The notes: generated by a model not told the origin, from the sequence alone. 46,188 nucleotides of DNA from Minisyncoccota bacterium (GCA_035524755.1 DATKOD010000006.1:1-46188); one strand, 5' to 3'; positions 793 through 26,207 are shown, numbered from the stretch's first letter. A program made the numbers and translations.

Positions 793-809
793 AGCGAGAG
801 TCTATTAAG

Positions 810-2311
<1,502 letters not shown>

Positions 2312-9608: not shown

Positions 9609-9683
9609 GGGCGGCTAGTTCAGTGGTAGAACGCTGTCCTGATAAGACAGAGGTCATAGGTTCGATTCCTATGCCGCCCACCA
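9609..9683 (+). tRNA. tRNA-Ile (anticodon GAU), CCA encoded
   Basis: Cloverleaf read by hand: acceptor gggcggc/gccgccc, anticodon arm ctgtc-ctGATaa-gacag, T-arm atagg-ttcgatt-cctat, discriminator A, CCA. Confidence 0.9.
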
Positions 9684-9691
9684 GTCAGTCC

Positions 9692-9763
9692 GGGCCGTTA
9701 GCTCAGTGGTAGAGCACCTCATTTGCAATGAGGGGGTCGCCGGTCCGAATCCGGCACGGTCCA
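9692..9763 (+). tRNA. tRNA-Ala (anticodon UGC), no encoded CCA
   Basis: Acceptor gggccgt/acggtcc gives the G3:U70 alanine identity pair. Anticodon arm cctca-ttTGCaa-tgagg. T-arm gccgg-tccgaat-ccggc. Confidence 0.9.
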
Positions 9764-11425
9764 CTAGAACTCAGTCGGGTTGAGCATCGCACCCGATGTC
9801 GGCGGTTCGGACGTGTGTGCAGGAGGGAGTGGGACCTTGGGCCCCCTGAACTTCATGATGAGGATCGTGGCTCCAATCGCCAAGATGATCACGCCGAGGA
9901 TATACGGTGCCATAACCAGAAGGCGTTCCGCCAGCGAGATCCCCCTGATCACCGATGCCGGCTGGGCGACTTTCTGGTATACGCCAGCGTTGTTCGCATA
10001 GACGATGACCCGCGCGCCCGCCGGCACGTCGCCGACGTTCGCGATCGTGCCCGTGGTGTGGACGGTCCGGATAAGCGTACCGCCGCTTCCGATGACATCC
10101 ACGCGGTACCCGTCCGGCGCCTGGCCTGATGCTACGGGACTCCATTGTACATCCGTGCCCCCAGGTGTCGCTGGACCGACACTGATGGTTGGCATAGGTG
10201 TCGGGGACGTCGTCGCCGGGACCGGTGTCTGTGATGACTGCGGTACCGGGCTTACCGGCAGGGGTGTCGGTCGGGTGGTTAGGACGTCGATGCTCTCACT
10301 CGCCGTATTCCCCGAAGCGTCGCTTGTAAGGACTTTTACACGATAGCTCGTGTCCTGCGTCAATCCGCTCAGCGTGATGGCATGCTCCAATTCCAATGTT
10401 GCATCGGAATTTCCGGCTCCGAACACGAGATAGGGAAGTTGTAACGCAACAACGATGGCATTCGCGGCTTCATTCGTGGTCCATGCGACCGTGAATCCTG
10501 TACCGGTAACGTTCACCGTGCGGAGATCCGTAATGACGGGTTTGGTCGTATCCGGCGGCAGCACGGTCGGGGTCGCAGGTGCGGAAGGAACCGGTGTAGG
10601 CGTCGGAGGGGGTGTCTGGCCGACACCCAACGCGACGAACGAGCCATCCAATGAAGATGCATTCCCCCAGATATCGCGCGCGGTCAGTGTGAACCCGTAA
10701 GAGGTGCCGGGCTCCACGGCCAGGGTGACCGAACACAAACTGAGTGACGGCAGACAGCTTGAATACCCTCCGGTATAGGGAACCGTGGTCCCGTTGTAGA
10801 TGACTCGTGCATCTACGGGCTCGTTCGCGGTCCATGTGACCGCCGCGGTACCGGAAACCGGCTGCACGACTGCGAGGTTCGAAAGGATCGGGGGTGCATA
10901 CTCACGATTTTCATAGAGTGCGTATTTGAACCCGAAGGTCTTGTCTTCCCCGTTGATGCGCGCCTGTCCGGTAGAGTACTGCAGCTGCGGTTGGGCGTTG
11001 TGGGCAAGGAGCGGGATCGTTCCTGCCTCGTACAATCGGAGGCCAACGAGTCCCGAGCTTACCCGTAGGATATACGGGGATCCGCCCGCCACAGAGAACT
11101 GGTTCGGAAAACCGATATGGAAGCGCGTGCCGCCGGGAGAATCCGCGACGGCCGGGAGCGACAGTGTGGATTCCGTGAGTTCGGTGCCGGAAGGATCGAA
11201 CAGACTGAATGTCGCGCTGCCGACGGTTCCGCCGGTGCTCAACCACAGGTCCATTCCGGAAAGGAATTCATTGAGCGGCAGGAACACTTCGTCGACGCTT
11301 CCACCGACGCTGTTCACGAGAATAGGCTCCGAATATCCCGGATCGAATTCGAAATACGGTGTTGCCGCGTGCGCAACGGTAGGGAACAGCGACAGTGCGA
11401 CGATTGACCCGATGAGCCATTTCAC
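9764..11425 (-). CDS. Large secreted, C-terminally anchored surface protein with Fn3-like repeats and Pro/Thr linkers (553 aa from GTG 11425; the ORF track starts at TTG 11446)
   Basis: From GTG 11425 the N-terminus is MKWLIGSIVALSLFPTVAHA|ATPY, a signal peptide. Repeated beta-sandwich-like blocks are present (AAVTWTANEPVDARVIY; FTVAWTTNEAANAIVV; YRVKVLTSDASGN). PT-rich linkers and a C-terminal TM helix (YILGVIILAIGATILIMKF). TGgTATACT lies 6 nt upstream of the GTG. Confidence 0.65.
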   Translation of the reverse strand: MKWLIGSIVALSLFPTVAHAATPYFEFDPGYSEPILVNSVGGSVDEVFLPLNEFLSGMDLWLSTGGTVGSATFSLFDPSGTELTESTLSLPAVADSPGGTRFHIGFPNQFSVAGGSPYILRVSSGLVGLRLYEAGTIPLLAHNAQPQLQYSTGQARINGEDKTFGFKYALYENREYAPPILSNLAVVQPVSGTAAVTWTANEPVDARVIYNGTTVPYTGGYSSCLPSLSLCSVTLAVEPGTSYGFTLTARDIWGNASSLDGSFVALGVGQTPPPTPTPVPSAPATPTVLPPDTTKPVITDLRTVNVTGTGFTVAWTTNEAANAIVVALQLPYLVFGAGNSDATLELEHAITLSGLTQDTSYRVKVLTSDASGNTASESIDVLTTRPTPLPVSPVPQSSQTPVPATTSPTPMPTISVGPATPGGTDVQWSPVASGQAPDGYRVDVIGSGGTLIRTVHTTGTIANVGDVPAGARVIVYANNAGVYQKVAQPASVIRGISLAERLLVMAPYILGVIILAIGATILIMKFRGPKVPLPPAHTSEPPTSGAMLNPTEF

Positions 11426-22311: not shown

Positions 22312-23022
22312 ATGGCAGAGTCCATGGTTCCGAACATCAAGGTGGGGGACGTCATGACCAAGGATGTCTTGGCCATCGACGTGGATGACACGCTCGATGT
22401 CATCGCGGGTCTGTTCGACAAGTACGACTACGACGGCCTGCCTGTCATCGATAAGGAGCATAAACTCCGTGGCGTCATCACGGCGTACGACATGGTCCTG
22501 CAGTCTTCGGACGTCCACATTCCGACGCTCATCAAGCTCATGGAGCAGATCGCCCGAGAGAAGGGTGACCGGCGCGTCATCGACGCGTACTTCGCCAAGC
22601 TCAAGGACATCAAGGCGACCAGCATCATGAACACGAAGGTCATTTCCATCGCGCCCGAGGCGACCCTGGAAGATGCGGCCAAACTGTTCGCCGACCATCA
22701 TCGCGTCAATCCGCTCTGCGTCGTGGACGCCGCCGGTGTGCTCGTGGGGGTCATCTCGCGGTACGACGTCATCAAATTCTTCAACGAGGCGTATCTGCAG
22801 CAGGTGGTTTCGACGGCGTCTCCGGGAGCAGATCCGTTCAAGGAATTCCCCACCCGTTCCGATAAGGAAGTGGAGACGGCCATCCAGCAGATGGAGAACG
22901 AATTCCTCCTGGTCCAGAAGCGCCGCCCGCTCGTATGGAAATACATCGCCATCGCCGCGTTCGCCGCAGGCTTGGTCGCCGCGACCGCGCTCATCATCCG
23001 CATCGTCCAGAACCAGGGCTAG
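22312..23022 (+). CDS. CBS-pair domain protein with a C-terminal TM helix (236 aa)
   Basis: Two CBS repeats (VGDVMTKDVLAIDVD...GLPVIDKEHKLRGVIT; IMNTKVISIAP...PLCVVDAAGVLVGVISRYDV). C-terminal helix YIAIAAFAAGLVAATALII. TGgTATACT at 22297-22305 lies 6 nt before the ATG. Confidence 0.8.
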   Translation: MAESMVPNIKVGDVMTKDVLAIDVDDTLDVIAGLFDKYDYDGLPVIDKEHKLRGVITAYDMVLQSSDVHIPTLIKLMEQIAREKGDRRVIDAYFAKLKDIKATSIMNTKVISIAPEATLEDAAKLFADHHRVNPLCVVDAAGVLVGVISRYDVIKFFNEAYLQQVVSTASPGADPFKEFPTRSDKEVETAIQQMENEFLLVQKRRPLVWKYIAIAAFAAGLVAATALIIRIVQNQG

Positions 23023-23027
23023 GGAAG

Positions 23028-23057
23028 TTGACTAATAGCCAGTTTTAATGCTATAAT
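23028..23057 (+). promoter_or_regulatory. Near-consensus sigma70 promoter TTGACT-N18(TGc)-TATAAT in an AT-rich patch
   Basis: TTGACT at 23028-23033 and TATAAT at 23052-23057 with an extended -10 TG. A 62-nt leader ends in SD GAGGTGA. Confidence 0.65.
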
Positions 23058-23119
23058 AATGAATAGCAGCCTGATCGTTCACAAGCAGAGCTCCTTTCTC
23101 GGGGCGAATGAGGTGAATC

Positions 23120-24532
23120 ATGAAGATGTCGACTGCCGGGCCCCTGCGCACGCAGGTGGTGGAGTGCATCGCGACGCACTACGAACCCCACCCCGACGAA
23201 GCGATGGCCATCTGGATGGCCGCGCGGTTCGGGCGTGAGACGTTCCTGGGCATCCAACGGGCACTGCGGGAGGGCCGCGTGCTCTTCTGTGACGCCGGCC
23301 GCGACATGCCCACGCACCTCCCGTGCAAGCGGGAGCGCATCCTGGAGGTCGGTGTCGGCGGACGTGAGTTCGACGAGCATCGCGACGGTCAGACGGGCAA
23401 CGAGTGCGCGGCAACGCTGATGGCCGACCGGCTCGGCCGCGGCGACACGGCGTTGGAGAGGATGGTCCAGTGGACCCTCGCCAACGACCAGGATGCCGAG
23501 GGCACCGCCTTCGACTGGTCGGACATCATGAAGGCCGGGTTCCACGCCGGTGCCAGCAACATGGTCATGCTGAAGCGGTCCTTCCGAGTGTTCGATGCCG
23601 TGTACAACACGCTGTCGGGTACCGCGAAATACCGCGACATCACCGGCATGCGCGGTTACTGGCAGTTGGCCGTGGATTGGGTTCTCGGCCTTACCAAGAA
23701 CGATCTCCTGAGCAATCCGAAGTACCTCTTCTCCGGTCCGATCCACGCCGCACAAGCCATCGGACTGGCCGGCGACGAGTCCATCAGCTGGATTCTCAAC
23801 TATGAGACGGACGTCTTCGGCCTGGACGGCAAGCCACCCCGCGTGCCTGGCTTCATGGAGATCCCGAACATCGTAGACGCTCTGTTCCATGACGGCGCCT
23901 CCATCGGCGAGGTCACGTACTTCGTCCGCGAGATGCTCAACGCACGCCTCGCCGAGCAGCGGCTGTTCCTGAAGGCCGTCGACCAGTGGGCGTCCATCAT
24001 GGCGGCGAAGCACGGGACGCATCCCGACGGCGGGACGTTCACCGTCGAGGAGTCGGGAGTCACGTACCGCGTGGCGGTCGTCGTCTCCGACAACCGTCGT
24101 ATCGTGTCCGCTGTCCGGGCACATGGTCCCCGCCGGCCCCATGTCATCGTGCGGGTCCTACCCAGGACCGGTCACATCTCGCTCTTCGCCAACGGACTGG
24201 ACGTCACCCCCATCGTCGCGCGTCTGCGCGCCGCCTGCTGGGAGGTGATGGGCAACACGAGCCCTCTGCCGCCGGAGAAGCTGGCGCACGAGTGGACCAT
24301 CACCGAAGTTCCGCAGCTGTGCCACCAGAAGAAGGCCGGCAACATCCTGAACGGCTCGCTCACCGCACCGCACGTGGACGCGGTCCGTCTCAGCTTGAAG
24401 ACGTACATCACCATCATGAAGGCCGGGCTCCGTGAGGTCGCCCGCGCGGCGGCGCAGCACCGCAGGGACGCCAAGCGTAGGTCGGAGAAACGTCGCGACG
24501 AGCGTCGGTCCCAAGAAGTGCAGTTGCAGTAG
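23120..24532 (+). CDS. Uncharacterised 470-aa protein with an N-terminal DHH-superfamily (MYG1/UPF0160-like) motif set and a basic C-terminal tail
   Basis: THYEPHPDEAMA (aa 19-30), VGVGGREFDEH (aa 77-87) and ANDQDAEG resemble the metal-ligand motifs of MYG1-type phosphoesterases/nucleases. The rest is unrecognised. Tail: RRDAKRRSEKRRDERR. Has SD plus ATG and its own terminator. Confidence 0.6.
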   Translation: MKMSTAGPLRTQVVECIATHYEPHPDEAMAIWMAARFGRETFLGIQRALREGRVLFCDAGRDMPTHLPCKRERILEVGVGGREFDEHRDGQTGNECAATLMADRLGRGDTALERMVQWTLANDQDAEGTAFDWSDIMKAGFHAGASNMVMLKRSFRVFDAVYNTLSGTAKYRDITGMRGYWQLAVDWVLGLTKNDLLSNPKYLFSGPIHAAQAIGLAGDESISWILNYETDVFGLDGKPPRVPGFMEIPNIVDALFHDGASIGEVTYFVREMLNARLAEQRLFLKAVDQWASIMAAKHGTHPDGGTFTVEESGVTYRVAVVVSDNRRIVSAVRAHGPRRPHVIVRVLPRTGHISLFANGLDVTPIVARLRAACWEVMGNTSPLPPEKLAHEWTITEVPQLCHQKKAGNILNGSLTAPHVDAVRLSLKTYITIMKAGLREVARAAAQHRRDAKRRSEKRRDERRSQEVQLQ

Positions 24533-24537
24533 TGCCG

Positions 24538-24567
24538 GGCCCCGAGGACATCCTCGGGGCCTTTTTT
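24538..24567 (+). terminator. Rho-independent terminator
   Basis: ggccccgagg-acat-cctcggggcc followed by tttttt. Confidence 0.85.
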
Positions 24568-24635
24568 CGTACGTCTTGCCAACTCGGCTCCGACGGTCCA
24601 CCATAGGCCATTGATCTTTGAGTCCAGAGGTGGGC

Positions 24636-25589
24636 ATGACATTCACGTCGCAGCAATTGCGCGAGTTCGTGGAGGAGCAGCGCGTTGTCGACATCCCGTG
24701 GCGGTGCGTGCGGCGCTTCAAGGGACAGCCGCGGACGTACTTCGACCCGAGGAAGCTCCGTGAACTCCAGGAGTCCATCGCGGAGAAGGGGCAGGAGACG
24801 GTCGGGAAGGTGCGTGTGCTCTGGAGCGGCACGGAGCAGCAGTTCGAGCTCATCGACGGCGAACGGCGCCTCAAGGTGTGCTCGCTGTTGGACCGCCCGT
24901 TCCGTGCGCTCGTGGAGGACGCCCAGGACCCTGAGGAGCAGTACGAGAAGTCCGTGCGGGCAAACCTGAACCGCGCCGACCACACGCCGCTGGAGATCGC
25001 GCGTGCGGTGGAGAACATCAGGATGTCCAAGCGCATCACATCGCTTCCGACCGGCGTGCAGATCGATGCGACGGCGCGCGTGTTCTCGAAGTCGGCGTCG
25101 TGGGTGCAGTCGTACCTCAGCCTGGCACGGCTCGTGCCGGACCTGCGGCGGCTGCTCGAGCCGACGGTGAAGAAGAAGAACCGCATCCCGCTGGTCCTGG
25201 CGTTCCGGCTGTCGACGCTCCCGCGCGACGAGCAGCTCATCCAGTGGAAGCGCATCACGAGCCGGAAGCTGGGCCTGATCCATGCGCAACGGCTCATCGA
25301 CGGCGTCATCCTGAAGAAGGGTCTGCACAAGCACCGCCGGGGCCGCAAACCCGCCGACGAGTTCGCGCTCATCCGGCGGTTCTCCGACAAGGTGCAACAG
25401 GATGCGGGCGCCGTGCTGGACATGTCCGACGCGCACCTGGTCCGCGTGTTCACCAGCAGGACGGAACGCGACCGGCAGGCGTTGCTCCAGGACCTGGCGA
25501 TGGCGGCGCAGGCCGTCGACCGTGTCAGGCAGCGCCTGAAGCAGGCGGTGAAGGAAGTACGTGCTGCGGTCGCGACCGCGGTCGCCTAG
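24636..25589 (+). CDS. ParB/Srx-fold protein (ParB N-terminal CTP-binding-type domain plus HTH), orphan, 317 aa
   Basis: GQPRTYFDPRKLRELQESI, FELIDGERRLKV (GERR arginine patch), HTPLEIARAVENI and SASWVQSYLSLARL (HTH-like). SD GAGGTGG lies 2-3 nt before ATG 24636. The ORF-track start at 24618 is TTG. Confidence 0.75.
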   Translation: MTFTSQQLREFVEEQRVVDIPWRCVRRFKGQPRTYFDPRKLRELQESIAEKGQETVGKVRVLWSGTEQQFELIDGERRLKVCSLLDRPFRALVEDAQDPEEQYEKSVRANLNRADHTPLEIARAVENIRMSKRITSLPTGVQIDATARVFSKSASWVQSYLSLARLVPDLRRLLEPTVKKKNRIPLVLAFRLSTLPRDEQLIQWKRITSRKLGLIHAQRLIDGVILKKGLHKHRRGRKPADEFALIRRFSDKVQQDAGAVLDMSDAHLVRVFTSRTERDRQALLQDLAMAAQAVDRVRQRLKQAVKEVRAAVATAVA

Positions 25590-25594
25590 CTGAC

Positions 25595-25620
25595 CGTCCC
25601 GGGGAAACCCGGGACGTTTT
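25595..25620. terminator. Hairpin terminator shared by the ParB-like gene (+) and convergent pth (-)
   Basis: cgtcccggg-gaaa-cccgggacg followed by tttt. Confidence 0.8.
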
Positions 25621-25621
25621 C

Positions 25622-26143
25622 TTATGACTTCAGTGCCTGCAGAACGCGGACCTCGCAGGCTTTGAACACGTCTTTGAGCCCTTCGCGCTGCGACGGCGTG
25701 AACGTGTGGAGCACGAAGTCGCGCACGAACTCGTCACGTTTCTTATCGGACTGCTCGCGGGCTTTGTCGAGCGCCCGCACACCCGTGCCGATGCGCACAC
25801 GCCAGAACTTCTTGGTCTTCAGCGCCTTCATGATGGACTCCACGCCCTTGTGGCCGGCGGAATCCTTCTCGAACGACAGTTTGCAGTTGCCGAACGGGAT
25901 ATCCAGGTCATCGTGTACGACGATGACATCGGCAGGCTTGGCCTTCGCTTTCTTCATCGCCGGCAGGACCGCGTCGCCGGACTTGTTCACGTAAGTGTCC
26001 GGTTTGAGGTACTGCACGCGGATGCCGTCGATGTCTTTGTCGCCGTGCTTCTTGATGAGCCAGTCCAGGAACTGCCAGCCCACATTGTGGCGGGTCTGTG
26101 CGTACTCCGGGTCCGGATTGCCGATACCGACGATGAGTTTCAT
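25622..26143 (-). CDS. pth: Peptidyl-tRNA hydrolase
   Basis: MKLIVGIGNPDPEYAQTRHNVGW, YVNKSG, VVHDDLD, GHKGVESI. 173 aa from ATG 26143. TACACT lies 7 nt upstream on the minus strand. Confidence 0.9.
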   Translation of the reverse strand: MKLIVGIGNPDPEYAQTRHNVGWQFLDWLIKKHGDKDIDGIRVQYLKPDTYVNKSGDAVLPAMKKAKAKPADVIVVHDDLDIPFGNCKLSFEKDSAGHKGVESIMKALKTKKFWRVRIGTGVRALDKAREQSDKKRDEFVRDFVLHTFTPSQREGLKDVFKACEVRVLQALKS

Positions 26144-26207
26144 GCCATGGAGTGTAACGGAATGGAGGGGAGTTGAAAAGGTCAGAAAAGTGTGATAATC
26201 TGCACAA

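What the first reader, a model, noticed from the sequence alone, without database searches (positions are those of the whole stretch)
23028..25620. Self-contained two-gene module: 470-aa DHH/MYG1-like protein plus an orphan ParB-fold protein, wedged between housekeeping genes
Seen in sequence:
- An AT-rich patch of about 50 bp carries the best sigma70 promoter in the window: TTGACT 23028-23033, an 18-nt spacer ending in TGc, TATAAT 23052-23057.
- A 62-nt leader follows, with SD GAGGTGA 3 nt before ATG 23120.
- The 470-aa ORF ends at a GC hairpin plus T6 (24538-24567).
- The second ORF (ATG 24636, SD GAGGTGG) ends at another hairpin terminator (25595-25620) that abuts the convergent pth stop.
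- The segment is very GC-rich (spot count 43/60 for 24181-24240), so the antisense strand stays open for more than 1 kb.

Established knowledge:
- Protein 2 has the ParB/Srx N-domain signature (QPR..FD, LIDGERR arginine patch used for CTP binding in ParB clamps) followed by an HTH-like segment.
- No ParA/Soj partner, no rsmG/gidB context and no recognisable parS-type palindrome lies nearby.
- Protein 1 carries THyePHpDEamA (aa 19-30), VGVGGrEFDEH (aa 77-87) and DqDaEG. These resemble the HxxxxHxDE / DVGGxYD..DHH / DxxDxG metal-ligand motifs of the MYG1/UPF0160 branch of the DHH phosphoesterase-nuclease superfamily.
- The other ~330 aa and the basic tail (RRDAKRRSEKRRDERR) match nothing I recognise.

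Inference: a predicted nuclease/phosphoesterase paired with a DNA-binding, possibly CTP-switched, ParB-fold protein, each gene followed by its own terminator and the module led by a strong promoter, looks like an accessory module. It could be a candidate defence system or the maintenance locus of an integrated element, rather than the chromosomal partition system.
Basis: partly seen in the sequence, partly recalled or inferred. Interest (0 to 1): 0.7.

Follow-up and report, generated by a model that had tools for sequence, protein, structure and literature searches.

The report
DHH-like enzyme beside orphan ParB
Two neighbouring genes in a Patescibacteria (CPR) chromosome encode a fast-evolving member of a large, uncurated family of DHH-type phosphoesterases and an orphan ParB DNA-binding protein related to phage ParBs; they look like two independent genes in a variable chromosomal slot, not a proven two-gene defence or partition module.

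Summary
The sequence features are all as described: promoter, Shine-Dalgarno (SD) sites, two ORFs and two terminators.

**Protein 1 (470 aa).**
- It has no Pfam, NCBIfam or PADLOC hit.
- It belongs to a large family (1943 clusters at 50% identity), found in Patescibacteria and some MAGs labelled WOR-3.
- Confident AlphaFold models retrieve almost only DHH-superfamily enzymes from two structure libraries. The DHH guess therefore holds.
- Membership of MYG1/UPF0160 is not shown: no PF03690 hit, and hhalign gives 30% probability.
- Its extra ~100 residues are an internal duplication of a helical subdomain.

**Protein 2.** It is a ParB/Noc-type protein with GERR and an HTH. It lacks the ParA-binding motif, an adjacent parA and a parS site, so it is an orphan ParB. 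Relatives sit on phage contigs near terminase genes.

**The pairing is narrow.**
- CBS–P1–ParB–pth synteny holds in related genomes.
- ParB is missing in two close relatives.
- 0 of 80 loci with ParB-clade relatives carry P1.
- Most P1 loci lack a ParB.

**Both genes behave as accessory-like.** They evolve 3–6 times faster than their neighbours (dN/dS 0.2–0.4) and are GC3-rich.

**Verdict.** These are two separate, accessory-like genes. A two-gene module or defence system is not supported, but it is not excluded.

The parts
22312..23022 (+). Upstream flank: CBS-domain membrane protein. It is the conserved left neighbour of P1 in all relatives.
   Evidence: Pfam CBS, E 1e-26. It is 86-92% identical in L001/L003/L096 and 74% in L013, always directly upstream of the P1 gene.
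23028..23057 (+). Sigma70-type promoter of P1: TTGACT, 18 nt, extended -10 TGcTATAAT.
   Evidence: It is the only promoter-like hit in 20-29 kb (11 of 12 positions). TTGAC-N18-TGnTATAAT is conserved upstream of the orthologues in L001, L003, L096 and L013.
23064..23119 (+). 5' leader with a small hairpin (23090-23105, GCTCC-TTTCTC-GGGGC) a few nt before SD GAGGTGA (23110-23116).
   Evidence: The hairpin is conserved as GCCCC..GGGGC in L001/L003/L096. A different hairpin (CCCGCG..CGCGGG) occupies the same place in L013. Folding z-scores are not significant and there is no Rfam hit.
23120..24532 (+). P1: 470-aa DHH-superfamily phosphoesterase-like protein, a long variant of a Patescibacteria-wide family. 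aa 13-163: DHH-like N-domain with H20, H24, D26, E27, D85-E86-H87, D123. aa ~164-260: duplicated helical subdomain. aa 262-295: linker helix. aa ~300-425: DHHA1-like domain with N411-G-S-L-T415. aa 426-470: basic helix.
   Evidence: Family search. Invariant residues. Internal duplication. AF2 model pLDDT 90.9. Fold matches to DHH enzymes.
24537..24568 (+). Intrinsic terminator after P1: GGGCCCCGAGG-ACAT-CCTCGGGGCC followed by T6.
   Evidence: Similar CCCGGGG/CCCGAGG hairpins follow P1 in L001, L003 and L096.
24627..25589 (+). SD GAGGTGG (24627-24633) and the orphan ParB gene (ATG 24636, 317 aa). It has a ParB-CTPase N-domain with GERR (aa 75-78), an HTH DNA-binding domain to about aa 240, and a divergent helical C-terminus. 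No ParA-binding motif.
   Evidence: PF02195 scores 29.8 bits (cut-off 26.3). TIGR00180 scores 55.9 bits, below its 58.45 cut-off. The clade profile matches Noc/ParB/Spo0J structures at E 1e-30 to 1e-34 over residues 7-242. The ParA-binding motif is absent.
25595..25623 (.). Second terminator hairpin (CGTCCCGGGG-AAA-CCCGGGACG plus T-run), shared with the convergent pth gene.
   Evidence: Nearly the same hairpin sits directly after P1 in L003 and L001, where it precedes ParB or pth respectively.
25622..26200 (-). Downstream flank: peptidyl-tRNA hydrolase (pth). It is the conserved right neighbour.
   Evidence: Pfam Pept_tRNA_hydro, E 3e-43. Synteny in L001, L003, L013, L014, L015 and L096.

Best explanation
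The segment holds two separately terminated genes. They share a variable chromosomal slot between a CBS-domain gene and pth in one Paceibacterota-type lineage. They are most likely functionally independent.

**Gene 1 (P1).**
- It is a lineage-specific, fast-evolving long variant of a large family of two-domain DHH-superfamily proteins. The family has no curated model and was recovered from Patescibacteria and some MAGs labelled WOR-3.
- The N-terminal DHH-like domain carries an invariant His/Asp/Glu cluster: H-x3-H-x-D-E, G-x-G-G, D-E-H and D.
- A linker helix leads to a DHHA1-like domain with an invariant N-G-S-L-T loop.
- Inferred mechanism: a metal-dependent phosphoesterase that cleaves phosphodiester or phosphomonoester bonds at the interdomain cleft.
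- The likely substrate is a nucleic-acid end or a small nucleotide (nanoRNase, pAp-phosphatase or exonuclease type). Typical family members end in a basic Cys4 knuckle, and this clade ends in a long basic helix.
- It is transcribed from its own conserved strong promoter.

**Gene 2.**
- It is an orphan ParB: a ParB-CTPase N-domain with GERR plus an HTH, without a ParA-interaction motif, a ParA or a parS.
- Inferred mechanism: a nucleotide-switched DNA-binding clamp or regulator of the Noc/KorB kind, not part of a ParABS segregation machine.
- It is dispensable (lost in close relatives), and its clade includes phage-encoded copies.

**Shown:** fold, family size, motif conservation, synteny, presence/absence pattern, evolutionary rates and composition.

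**Inferred:** catalytic activity, substrate, nucleotide binding, and independence of the two functions.
For: **P1 family and fold**
- A profile of 20 homologues finds 1943 clusters at 50% identity (1048 at E<=1e-30). Typical members are about 350 aa.
- Titled genome records are Paceibacterota, Jorgensen-, Blackburn-, Staskawicz- and Saccharibacteria, plus several labelled WOR-3.
- H20, H24, E27, G78, D85, H87, D123, N411, S413 and T415 are invariant across the 20 aligned members.
- AF2 models reach pLDDT 90.9 (window protein) and 88.7 (canonical member).
- Foldseek top hits are RecJ2, RecJ and PPX1 in PDB.
- About 20 DHH phosphohydrolases, exopolyphosphatases and NrnB come up in BFVD, with probability up to 1.0.
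- For the canonical member the hits are PPX1, 6mtz, RecJ-Cdc45 and the DHHA1-fold C-Ala domain.
- hhalign against MYG1 places TH..PHxDE on THnGtFHCDE and GVGG..FDEH on DVGG..YDHH.

**Independence of the two genes**
- L001 and L096 have CBS-P1-pth with no ParB.
- 0 of 80 loci with ParB-clade relatives have P1.
- P1 loci in other lineages show no conserved neighbour.
- Each gene has its own terminator.

**ParB**
- It matches the ParB/Noc families and solved ParB, Noc and Spo0J structures.
- It lacks the ParA-binding motif that canonical ParBs in the same data set carry.
- No ParA Walker A motif occurs within +-8 kb in 89 loci.
- Full-length relatives are found on 9 IMG/VR contigs. Terminase or portal genes were confirmed on three of them.
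- Orphan ParBs linked to mobile elements are a described category (PMC12704722).

**Vertical inheritance in place**
- dS of P1 and ParB (0.6-1.2) is similar to that of CBS and pth (0.6-1.2).
Against: **Points that keep a functional pairing open**
- P1-ParB adjacency survives deep divergence. In L013, P1 is only 24% identical and ParB 56%, yet the order CBS-P1-ParB-pth is kept.
- A second lineage (L009, L097, L098, L100) has a canonical ParB 1-3 kb upstream of its P1 gene.
- Both genes share elevated dN/dS and GC3. This could reflect a common selective regime.
- There is precedent for a phage ParB-like protein activating a partner enzyme (PMC13229309).

**Limits of the fold and family evidence**
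- Global TM-scores are low (0.2-0.47), as expected for a two-domain protein with an insert.
- No DHH, DHHA1 or MYG1 Pfam model is matched.
- The only Pfam link is ChrB_C, a ligand-sensing domain, for one relative. A non-catalytic role for the N-domain is therefore not excluded.
Confidence: 0.6

Rival explanations
1. P1 and ParB form a functional pair. The orphan ParB loads on or marks DNA and recruits, activates or regulates the DHH-type nuclease/phosphoesterase. The pair would be an accessory system: defence, DNA/RNA processing, or maintenance of an element.
For: - Adjacency in the same orientation is kept in the window, in L003-L006 and in the much more divergent L013.
- A second lineage has a ParB within 1-3 kb of P1.
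- Both genes evolve fast and are GC3-rich.
- ParB relatives are phage-borne.
- There is precedent for a ParB-like activator of a phage DNA-modifying enzyme (PMC13229309).
- The slot is a hot spot where metal-resistance genes are inserted in relatives.
Against: - P1 persists without ParB in L001 and L096.
- 0 of 80 loci with ParB-clade relatives carry P1.
- 9 phage-borne full-length ParB relatives have no P1, and P1 is absent from viral contigs.
- A strong terminator separates the genes.
- There is no PADLOC match.
- The second lineage uses a different, canonical ParB with miaA in between.
Confidence: 0.15
2. The ParB is the ordinary chromosomal ParB of this reduced genome (condensin loading, or segregation without an adjacent ParA). 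P1 is an unrelated housekeeping RNA/nucleotide-turnover enzyme. The locus would then be plain core genome.
For: - The chromosomal position among housekeeping genes is conserved.
- dS is similar to that of the flanks.
- The protein has the ParB N-domain plus HTH architecture with GERR.
- Other Patescibacteria loci in this data set carry a ParB with no parA in the stretch fetched.
Against: - ParB is absent from the slot in two close relatives.
- It lacks the ParA-binding motif that canonical Patescibacteria ParBs in L097/L098/L100 keep.
- It lacks a ParB_C hit and falls below the TIGR00180 cut-off.
- No parS is found.
- dN/dS is 0.31 against 0.04-0.13 for neighbours.
- The clade has phage members.
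Confidence: 0.15
3. The pair, or ParB alone, is the decayed remnant of an integrated phage or island that landed between the CBS gene and pth.
For: - GC3 is 2-3.5 SD above the window mean.
- ParB-clade relatives lie next to terminase or portal genes on phage contigs.
- Islands are inserted beside ParB in L003 and L015.
- ParB is polymorphic among close relatives.
Against: - There are no integrase, att repeats, tRNA or other phage genes at this site in any of the relatives.
- P1 is never found on viral or plasmid records.
- Synonymous divergence matches the flanks, so any acquisition predates the split of these genomes.
Confidence: 0.1

Closest known systems
MYG1 / UPF0160 (Pfam PF03690), 3'-5' RNA exonuclease of the DHH superfamily (PMC6582341)
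   Same: - Both are two-domain DHH-type proteins of about 330-350 aa.
- The profile-profile alignment puts T-H-x3-H-x-D-E on T-H-x-G-x-F-H-x-D-E.
- It also puts G-V-G-G...F-D-E-H on D-V-G-G...Y-D-H-H, the catalytic DHH of MYG1.
- A following acidic motif aligns as well.
   Different: - There is no PF03690 hit even at E<=10, for members or for the family consensus. Human MYG1 scores 458.7 bits as a control.
- hhalign gives only 30% probability, over the N-terminal 147 columns.
- DHH is replaced by DEH, and the Asp of DVGG by Gly.
- The C-terminal motif is NGSLT, not the MYG1 GGH-type region.
- The family adds a Cys4 knuckle or a basic helix. The window clade also has a duplicated helical subdomain.
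- MYG1 structures exist (24ah and others) but did not appear in the fold library searched.
RecJ / NrnA / PPX1 and other DHH-DHHA1 phosphoesterases
   Same: The overall two-domain fold with a linker helix matches. These are the best structural matches in PDB and BFVD. A predicted metal-binding His/Asp cluster sits in the N-domain.
   Different: There are no Pfam DHH or DHHA1 hits. The motif pattern differs, sequence identity is about 10% and global TM-scores are low. No GGGH motif is recognisable.
ChrB C-terminal domain (Pfam PF09828), chromate-sensing regulator domain (PMC3817168)
   Same: One family member (P0017) matches over its N-domain above the gathering score: 30.8 against 25 bits, residues 17-122. 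Four others match below it.
   Different: The window protein itself gives no hit. ChrB is a two-domain transcription regulator, with no DHHA1-like domain and no known catalytic role.
Orphan ParB-CTPase-fold proteins: Noc, KorB and mobile-element ParB-like proteins (PMC12704722)
   Same: - It has the ParB N-domain with GERR plus an HTH.
- It lacks the ParA-binding motif and lies outside a parAB operon.
- Its relatives occur on phages.
- The clade profile hits Noc, ParB, Spo0J and KorB structures.
   Different: - It is a distinct clade with a conserved N-x-x-R-x-x-H-T-P-L-E Box III, in which the Glu of ENLQR is not conserved.
- It has a divergent helical C-terminus instead of ParB_C.
- No membrane-targeting helix was looked for, and no cognate DNA site is known.
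Phage 5mYOX-associated ParB activators (PMC13229309)
   Same: This is a precedent for a ParB-like protein encoded next to, and needed by, an enzyme that acts on DNA.
   Different: Those ParBs lack an obvious DNA-binding domain, and their partner is a dioxygenase. Here the partner would be a DHH-type protein, and no dependence has been shown.

Membership tests
DHH phosphoesterase superfamily | Two-domain DHH + DHHA1-type fold joined by a linker | tested here: met
   AF2 models reach pLDDT 90.9 and 88.7. Top Foldseek hits are DHH enzymes in PDB (RecJ2, RecJ, PPX1) and in BFVD (about 20 DHH phosphohydrolases, probability up to 1.0). For the canonical member the hits are PPX1, RecJ-Cdc45 and the DHHA1-fold C-Ala domain. 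Global TM-scores are low (0.2-0.47).
DHH phosphoesterase superfamily | Conserved metal-ligand motifs I-IV (DXD, D, DHH, D) | tested here: inconclusive
   The family has invariant H20, H24, E27, D85, H87 and D123, and nearly invariant D26 and E86. The pattern is H-x3-H-x-D-E / G-x-G-G / D-E-H / D, which is not canonical. The geometry of the site could not be inspected.
DHH phosphoesterase superfamily | Match to Pfam DHH (PF01368) / DHHA1 (PF02272) models | tested here: not met
   No hit at E<=10 for the window protein, for 20 members or for the family consensus.
DHH phosphoesterase superfamily | Metal-dependent phosphoesterase activity | not testable with these tools
   This needs biochemistry.
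MYG1 / UPF0160 (PF03690) | Match to PF03690 above the gathering score | tested here: not met
   No hit at E<=10. The positive control, human MYG1, scores 458.7 bits.
MYG1 / UPF0160 (PF03690) | Profile-profile homology over the whole protein | tested here: inconclusive
   hhalign of the family (78 sequences) against MYG1 (14 vertebrate and amphioxus sequences): probability 30%, E 5.5e-4, N-terminal 147 columns only, with the motifs in register. The MYG1 alignment lacked bacterial members.
MYG1 / UPF0160 (PF03690) | Catalytic D-H-H triad (human 106-108; PMC6582341) | tested here: not met
   The aligned triad is D85-E86-H87. The first His is replaced by Glu in nearly all family members.
MYG1 / UPF0160 (PF03690) | Structural superposition on solved MYG1 | not testable with these tools
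   MYG1 entries (24ah and others) are in the sequence copy of the PDB. None appeared among the fold-library matches listed.
ChrB_C (PF09828) | Match above the gathering score (25 bits) | tested here: not met
   The window protein gives no hit. Relative P0017 scores 30.8 bits, and four others score 12-17 bits.
ParB/Noc-type ParB-CTPase proteins | ParB N-terminal domain with Box II GERR | tested here: met
   PF02195 scores 29.8 bits against a 26.3 cut-off. G75-E-R-R78 is invariant or nearly invariant across the clade.
ParB/Noc-type ParB-CTPase proteins | Central HTH DNA-binding domain homologous to ParB/Noc | tested here: met
   The clade profile aligns to Noc, ParB and Spo0J structures over residues 7-242, at E 1e-30 to 3e-34.
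Canonical ParABS partition ParB | N-terminal ParA-binding motif (L/F/I)G(K/R)G(L/F/I) (PMC12704722) | tested here: not met
   Absent from the window ParB and from all 18 clade members. Present in the canonical ParBs P0040 and P0041 and in those of L097/L098/L100.
Canonical ParABS partition ParB | Adjacent parA, and parS sites | tested here: not met
   No KGGxGK[ST] in the 46-kb window or within +-8 kb in 89 related loci. One parS-like match with 3 mismatches, against 0.9 expected by chance.
Canonical ParABS partition ParB | TIGR00180 parB_part cut-off; ParB_C dimerisation domain | tested here: not met
   TIGR00180 scores 55.9 bits, below the 58.45 cut-off. There is no PF23552 or PF17762 hit for the window protein.
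Orphan ParB (sensu PMC12704722) | ParB-CTPase fold, outside a parAB operon, no ParA-binding motif | tested here: met
ParB/Noc-type ParB-CTPase proteins | CTP (or other NTP) binding and clamp closure | not testable with these tools
   GERR is present. The Box III Glu of ENLQR is Ala in the window protein. Specificity cannot be predicted from sequence (PMC12704722).
Known anti-phage defence systems (PADLOC-DB 2.0) | Match of either protein to a defence-system model | tested here: not met
   P1 has no hit. ParB has only PD-Lambda-5_A at E 0.0036 and 14 bits, over the generic ParB_N region.

The most novel reading that the evidence does not exclude
In this lineage the orphan ParB and the DHH-type protein work together. 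A nucleotide-switched DNA clamp would recruit or activate a nuclease/phosphoesterase, by analogy with phage ParB-dependent DNA-modifying enzymes. That would give a new kind of ParB-coupled effector system.

A wider version concerns the whole P1 family. It could be a Patescibacteria-specific nuclease whose genes are kept GC-rich relative to their genomes, because of the enzyme's own specificity or because of frequent exchange between genomes.
Probability: 0.12. Interest if true: 0.65.

Novelty: new variant of a known kind. Interest (0 to 1): 0.4.

Why it matters
**The P1 family.**
- With about 1900 clusters at 50% identity, it is one of the larger protein families of Patescibacteria that has no Pfam or NCBIfam model and no name.
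- Placing it in the DHH superfamily gives a testable activity: a metal-dependent exonuclease or nanoRNase/pAp-phosphatase type.
- The organisms concerned have a poorly mapped RNA- and nucleotide-turnover machinery.

**The ParB.** It adds a chromosomal, phage-related clade to the recently described world of orphan ParB-CTPase proteins.

**What the finding is not.** It is not evidence for a new defence system, and the pairing is confined to one lineage.

**Open puzzle.** Both gene families are GC3-rich relative to their host genomes in many independent lineages. This is a small unexplained observation worth a systematic look.

Tried and rejected
**Family and structure searches for P1**
- Pfam, NCBIfam, PHROGs and PADLOC gave nothing usable. 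The weak macrolide-phosphotransferase hits (E 0.003-0.01) cover 70 residues and are not supported by the fold, so I rejected them.
- A sequence-profile search of the PDB returned only chance hits.
- PDB entry 6mtz (H. pylori, uncharacterised) was the second-best fold match of the canonical member. The MYG1 profile does not hit it, so it gives no functional lead.

**Signs of a mobile element or partition system around the pair**
- ParA by Walker A motif: none in the window or in 89 loci.
- parS consensus: at chance level.
- Palindromes and att-like direct repeats around the module: nothing convincing.
- Phage and plasmid collections and IMG/VR for P1: no relatives.
- Association of the ParB clade with heavy-metal transporter genes: seen in L003, L015 and L028 only. 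It is too thin to build on.

**Other readings tested**
- An antisense overlapping gene inside P1: antisense open stretches are no longer than in GC-matched control genes, so I rejected it.
- A riboswitch or known RNA in the leader: no Rfam hit, and the folding z-scores are not significant.
- Conserved gene neighbours of the P1 family across lineages: none apart from spurious antisense ORFs and the ParB of one lineage.
- The equal contig lengths (12623 for P0020 and P0024; 3732 for P0025 and L116) looked like co-location of P1 and ParB. For the 12623 pair the two proteins lie on different contigs. For the 3732 pair, L116 carries no ParB-clade hit. I treat both as coincidences.

Full report
**1. 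The observation**

- The sigma70-type promoter TTGACT-18-TGcTATAAT (23028-23057) is the only such hit between 20 and 29 kb. It matches 11 of 12 positions.
- SD GAGGTGA (23110-23116) precedes ATG 23120. The 470-aa ORF ends at 24532, and a hairpin at 24537-24562 plus a T-run follows.
- ATG 24636 opens a 317-aa ORF ending at 25589. It is followed by a hairpin (25595-25616) that touches the convergent pth stop.
- The two genes have GC3 of 0.87 and 0.91. Twenty other genes of the window have 0.76 +/- 0.04.
- The long antisense ORFs are real, but they are no longer than in GC-matched control genes.
- No ParA-type Walker A motif occurs anywhere in the 46 kb, and there is no parS beyond chance.

**2. 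Protein 1**

*Family.*
- The curated libraries give nothing for it.
- It is not an orphan, however. A word-indexed search found 21 relatives.
- An exhaustive profile search found 1943 clusters at 50% identity, 1048 of them at E<=1e-30. Most are about 350 aa.
- Where a genome record has a title, it is Paceibacterota, Jorgensen-, Blackburn-, Staskawicz- or Saccharibacteria, or several MAGs labelled WOR-3.
- The window itself carries a 16S gene and typical small-genome housekeeping genes.

*Conserved residues and architecture.*
- Across 20 diverse members, H20, H24, E27, G78, D85, H87, D123, N411, S413 and T415 are invariant (window numbering).
- Typical members end in a basic Cys-rich tail (C..C..CPWY..GL.RC). 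The window clade replaces this tail with a long basic helix.
- The 'extra' sequence of the window protein, and of other long variants, is a tandem duplication of a helical segment. Residues 13-163 match profile positions 4-158, and residues 210-456 match positions 94-330.

*Fold.*
- AlphaFold2 gives confident models: pLDDT 90.9 for the window protein and 88.7 for a canonical 358-aa member.
- The nine best PDB matches of the window model are all DHH-superfamily enzymes: archaeal RecJ2, RecJ and yeast PPX1. NrnA comes further down.
- In the viral structure library, about twenty of the first 22 matches are annotated DHH phosphohydrolases, exopolyphosphatases or NrnB, with probability up to 1.0.
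- The canonical member hits PPX1, an uncharacterised H. pylori protein, RecJ-Cdc45 and the DHHA1-fold C-Ala domain of AlaRS.
- Global TM-scores are low (0.2-0.47). This is expected for a hinged two-domain protein with an insert.
- The agreement of two libraries and two models makes the superfamily assignment solid.

*The narrower MYG1 claim is not established.*
- PF03690 is not matched even at E<=10 by any member or by the family consensus.
- As a control, a human MYG1 sequence scores 458.7 bits and matches PDB chains named MYG1 exonuclease.
- A profile-profile comparison with 14 database MYG1 proteins gives 30% probability and E 5.5e-4 over the N-terminal 147 columns.
- That alignment does put TH..PHxDE on THnGtFHCDE, and GVGG..FDEH on DVGG..YDHH, the catalytic DHH of MYG1 (PMC6582341).
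- The only Pfam link is ChrB_C. It is above threshold for one relative and below it for four others. That domain is described as the ligand-sensing half of the chromate regulator ChrB (PMC3817168).

**3. Protein 2**

- It passes PF02195. It also scores against parB_part, Noc and RepB models and against phage 'ParB-like partition protein' PHROGs.
- A profile of its clade aligns to Noc, ParB and Spo0J structures over residues 7-242, at E 1e-30 to 3e-34. This covers the N-domain and the HTH domain.
- GERR is conserved. In Box III the Glu of ENLQR is not conserved, and is Ala in the window protein.
- The ParA-binding motif (L/F/I)G(K/R)G(L/F/I), as defined in PMC12704722, is absent from the window protein and from all 18 clade members. 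It is present in the canonical ParBs of the same data set.
- No ParA-type Walker A motif lies within +-8 kb in 89 related loci.
- It is therefore an orphan ParB in the sense of that survey, which found such proteins widespread and linked to mobile elements.
- Consistent with this, 22 relatives lie on IMG/VR viral contigs, and nine of them are full-length clade members. On three contigs I confirmed terminase large subunit or portal genes a few kb away.
- Other relatives sit alone among ribosomal-protein and tRNA-synthetase genes of low-GC genomes.

**4. Are the two genes a module?**

*Comparative loci.* Identities are amino-acid identities to the window proteins.

| Locus | Flank identity | Gene order | P1 | ParB |
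|---|---|---|---|---|
| L003-L006 | about 88-92% | CBS-P1-ParB-[P-type ATPase, HMA/DsbD_2, small gene]-pth | 68% | 76% |
| L001/L002 | about 84-95% | CBS-P1-pth | 67% | absent |
| L096 | about 85-92% | CBS-P1-pth | 69% | absent |
| L013/L014 | about 65-74% | CBS-P1-ParB-pth-LepB-HisS | 24% (a 633-aa family member, E 1e-69 against the family profile) | 56% |
| L015 | pth partial, 69% | >9 kb of accessory genes, including metal transporters, then ParB-pth | not seen | 58% |

*What the table shows.*
- P1 is fixed at this slot.
- ParB is ancestral to the clade but has been lost at least twice.
- The slot accepts insertions.

*Evolutionary rates.* Synonymous divergence of P1 and ParB (0.6-1.2) is like that of CBS and pth. 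Their dN/dS is 0.21-0.39 and 0.31, against 0.04-0.13 for the flanks. Both genes are therefore inherited in place, but under much weaker or diversifying constraint.

*Outside this lineage the association disappears.*
- None of 80 metagenomic loci with ParB-clade relatives (24-44% identity) carries a P1 gene.
- None of the viral loci does either.
- P1 genes of other lineages sit next to unrelated housekeeping genes, with no conserved neighbour.
- There is one exception. A lineage represented by L009, L097, L098 and L100 has a canonical ParB (with LGRGL) 1-3 kb upstream and divergent, with miaA in between.

*Other points.*
- P1 is absent from the phage, plasmid and IMG/VR collections.
- There is no integrase, tRNA or att-like repeat at the borders.
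- PADLOC gives no meaningful hit.
- The promoter upstream of P1 is conserved in all five orthologous loci, as is a small hairpin just before the SD.
- A strong terminator separates P1 from ParB.

**5. Interpretation**

The best-supported reading is two independent genes.

P1 is a member of a large, uncurated DHH-superfamily family.
- From the fold, the invariant His/Asp/Glu cluster and the basic or zinc-knuckle tail, I infer a metal-dependent phosphoesterase.
- Its substrate would be nucleic-acid ends or small nucleotides.
- The activity and the substrate are inference only.

ParB is an orphan, dispensable, phage-related ParB-CTPase protein.
- I infer a nucleotide-switched DNA-binding regulator or clamp rather than a partition protein.

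The 'accessory' flavour is real for ParB and partly real for P1. The 'self-contained module, defence system or integrated element' reading is not supported.

It is not excluded either.
- Adjacency persists in L013 despite extreme divergence of P1.
- A second lineage has a ParB near P1.
- Both genes show the same rate and composition anomalies.
- A ParB-like activator of a phage enzyme has been described (PMC13229309).
- I give a functional pairing about 0.12-0.15.

**6. An unexplained side result**

Genes of the P1 family are GC3-richer than their neighbours in many unrelated genomes.

| Locus | P1 GC3 | Neighbour GC3 |
|---|---|---|
| L008 | 0.66 | 0.40 |
| L105 | 0.49 | 0.22 |
| L011 | 0.58 | 0.40 |
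| L109 | 0.65 | 0.34 |

- In L008 and L105 the GC-rich stretch is an island the size of the gene.
- In a stricter, de-replicated set, 8 of 9 P1 genes deviate upwards and 4 of 9 have z>2. Only 4.7% of control genes reach z>2 (p = 0.003).
- In the same set, 26 of 31 ParB-clade genes deviate upwards (p = 4e-7).
- I have no explanation. Candidates are repeated transfer, biased gene conversion at a recombination-prone gene, or selection on the mRNA.

**7. Verdict**

- ParB belongs to an already described category.
- P1 belongs to a known superfamily but to a family variant that no library describes.
- Interest is moderate.

Noticed in passing
window 23120-25589; L008 4699-5778; L105 269-1315; L011 165-1574; L109 4121-5515; ParB genes of L020, L023, L092: Genes of the P1 family and of the orphan ParB clade are GC3-richer than their neighbours in many independent genomes. 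In L008 and L105 the P1 gene forms a GC island the size of the gene inside low-GC DNA. In the de-replicated set, 8 of 9 P1 genes and 26 of 31 ParB-clade genes deviate upwards. No cause was identified.
   Followed up: partly
window 23064-23119; L001 7951-8006; L003 6318-6385; L096 1238-1296; L013 965-1068: The 5' leader of P1 keeps a 5-6 bp hairpin a few nt upstream of the SD. It is GCCCC..GGGGC in four genomes and a different hairpin, CCCGCG..CGCGGG, at the same place in L013. In some genomes an upstream UUCAC can pair with the SD. Folding z-scores are not significant and there is no Rfam family.
   Followed up: partly
L003 8817-12789; L015 1-9897; L028 1505-4799: Heavy-metal genes (P-type ATPase with an HMA domain, an HMA/DsbD_2 membrane protein, a cupredoxin) are inserted right beside the ParB gene in relatives. 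They lie downstream of it in L003 and upstream in L015, and a similar pair lies 3 kb from a ParB relative in L028. The CBS-pth slot looks like an insertion hot spot.
   Followed up: partly
L118 4875-9420; L121 5013-10822; L126 1441-5882: Full-length relatives of the orphan ParB sit in phage contigs a few kb from terminase large subunit or portal genes. They match the same PHROGs (4715, 3264) as the window protein.
   Followed up: partly
L009 3419-6957; L097 357-5516; L098 1373-4690; L100 138-3460: In another Patescibacteria lineage, a canonical ParB (with the LGRGL ParA-binding motif, no parA in the stretch fetched) lies 1-3 kb upstream of the P1-family gene and is transcribed divergently. In L009 miaA lies between them.
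   Followed up: partly
window 24537-24568 and 25595-25623; L001 9388-9418; L003 7750-7778 and 8790-8818; L096 2733-2765: The ParB gene is bracketed by two similar GC-rich terminator hairpins (CCCGAGG / CCCGGGG type). In genomes without ParB a single hairpin of the same kind sits between P1 and pth. Loss of the ParB cassette by recombination between the hairpins is conceivable.
   Followed up: no
window 24954-24974 (ParB aa 107-113): Box III of this ParB reads V-R-A-N-L-N-R where canonical ParB and Noc have ENLQR. The Glu position is variable across the clade, while a following H-T-P-L-E is invariant. From my own knowledge, mutating this Glu impairs CTP hydrolysis in canonical ParB. I did not check this in the literature held here.
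   Followed up: no
window 803-2309 and 9609-9764: A complete 16S rRNA gene lies 7.3 kb from a tRNA-Ile/tRNA-Ala pair, with protein-size ORFs in between, and there is no 23S in the window. The rRNA genes appear unlinked.
   Followed up: no
L116 713-1951: In this Paceibacterota contig the P1-family gene is split into two adjacent ORFs (713-1390 and 1394-1951). It may be a pseudogene, a sequencing error or an in-frame stop.
   Followed up: no
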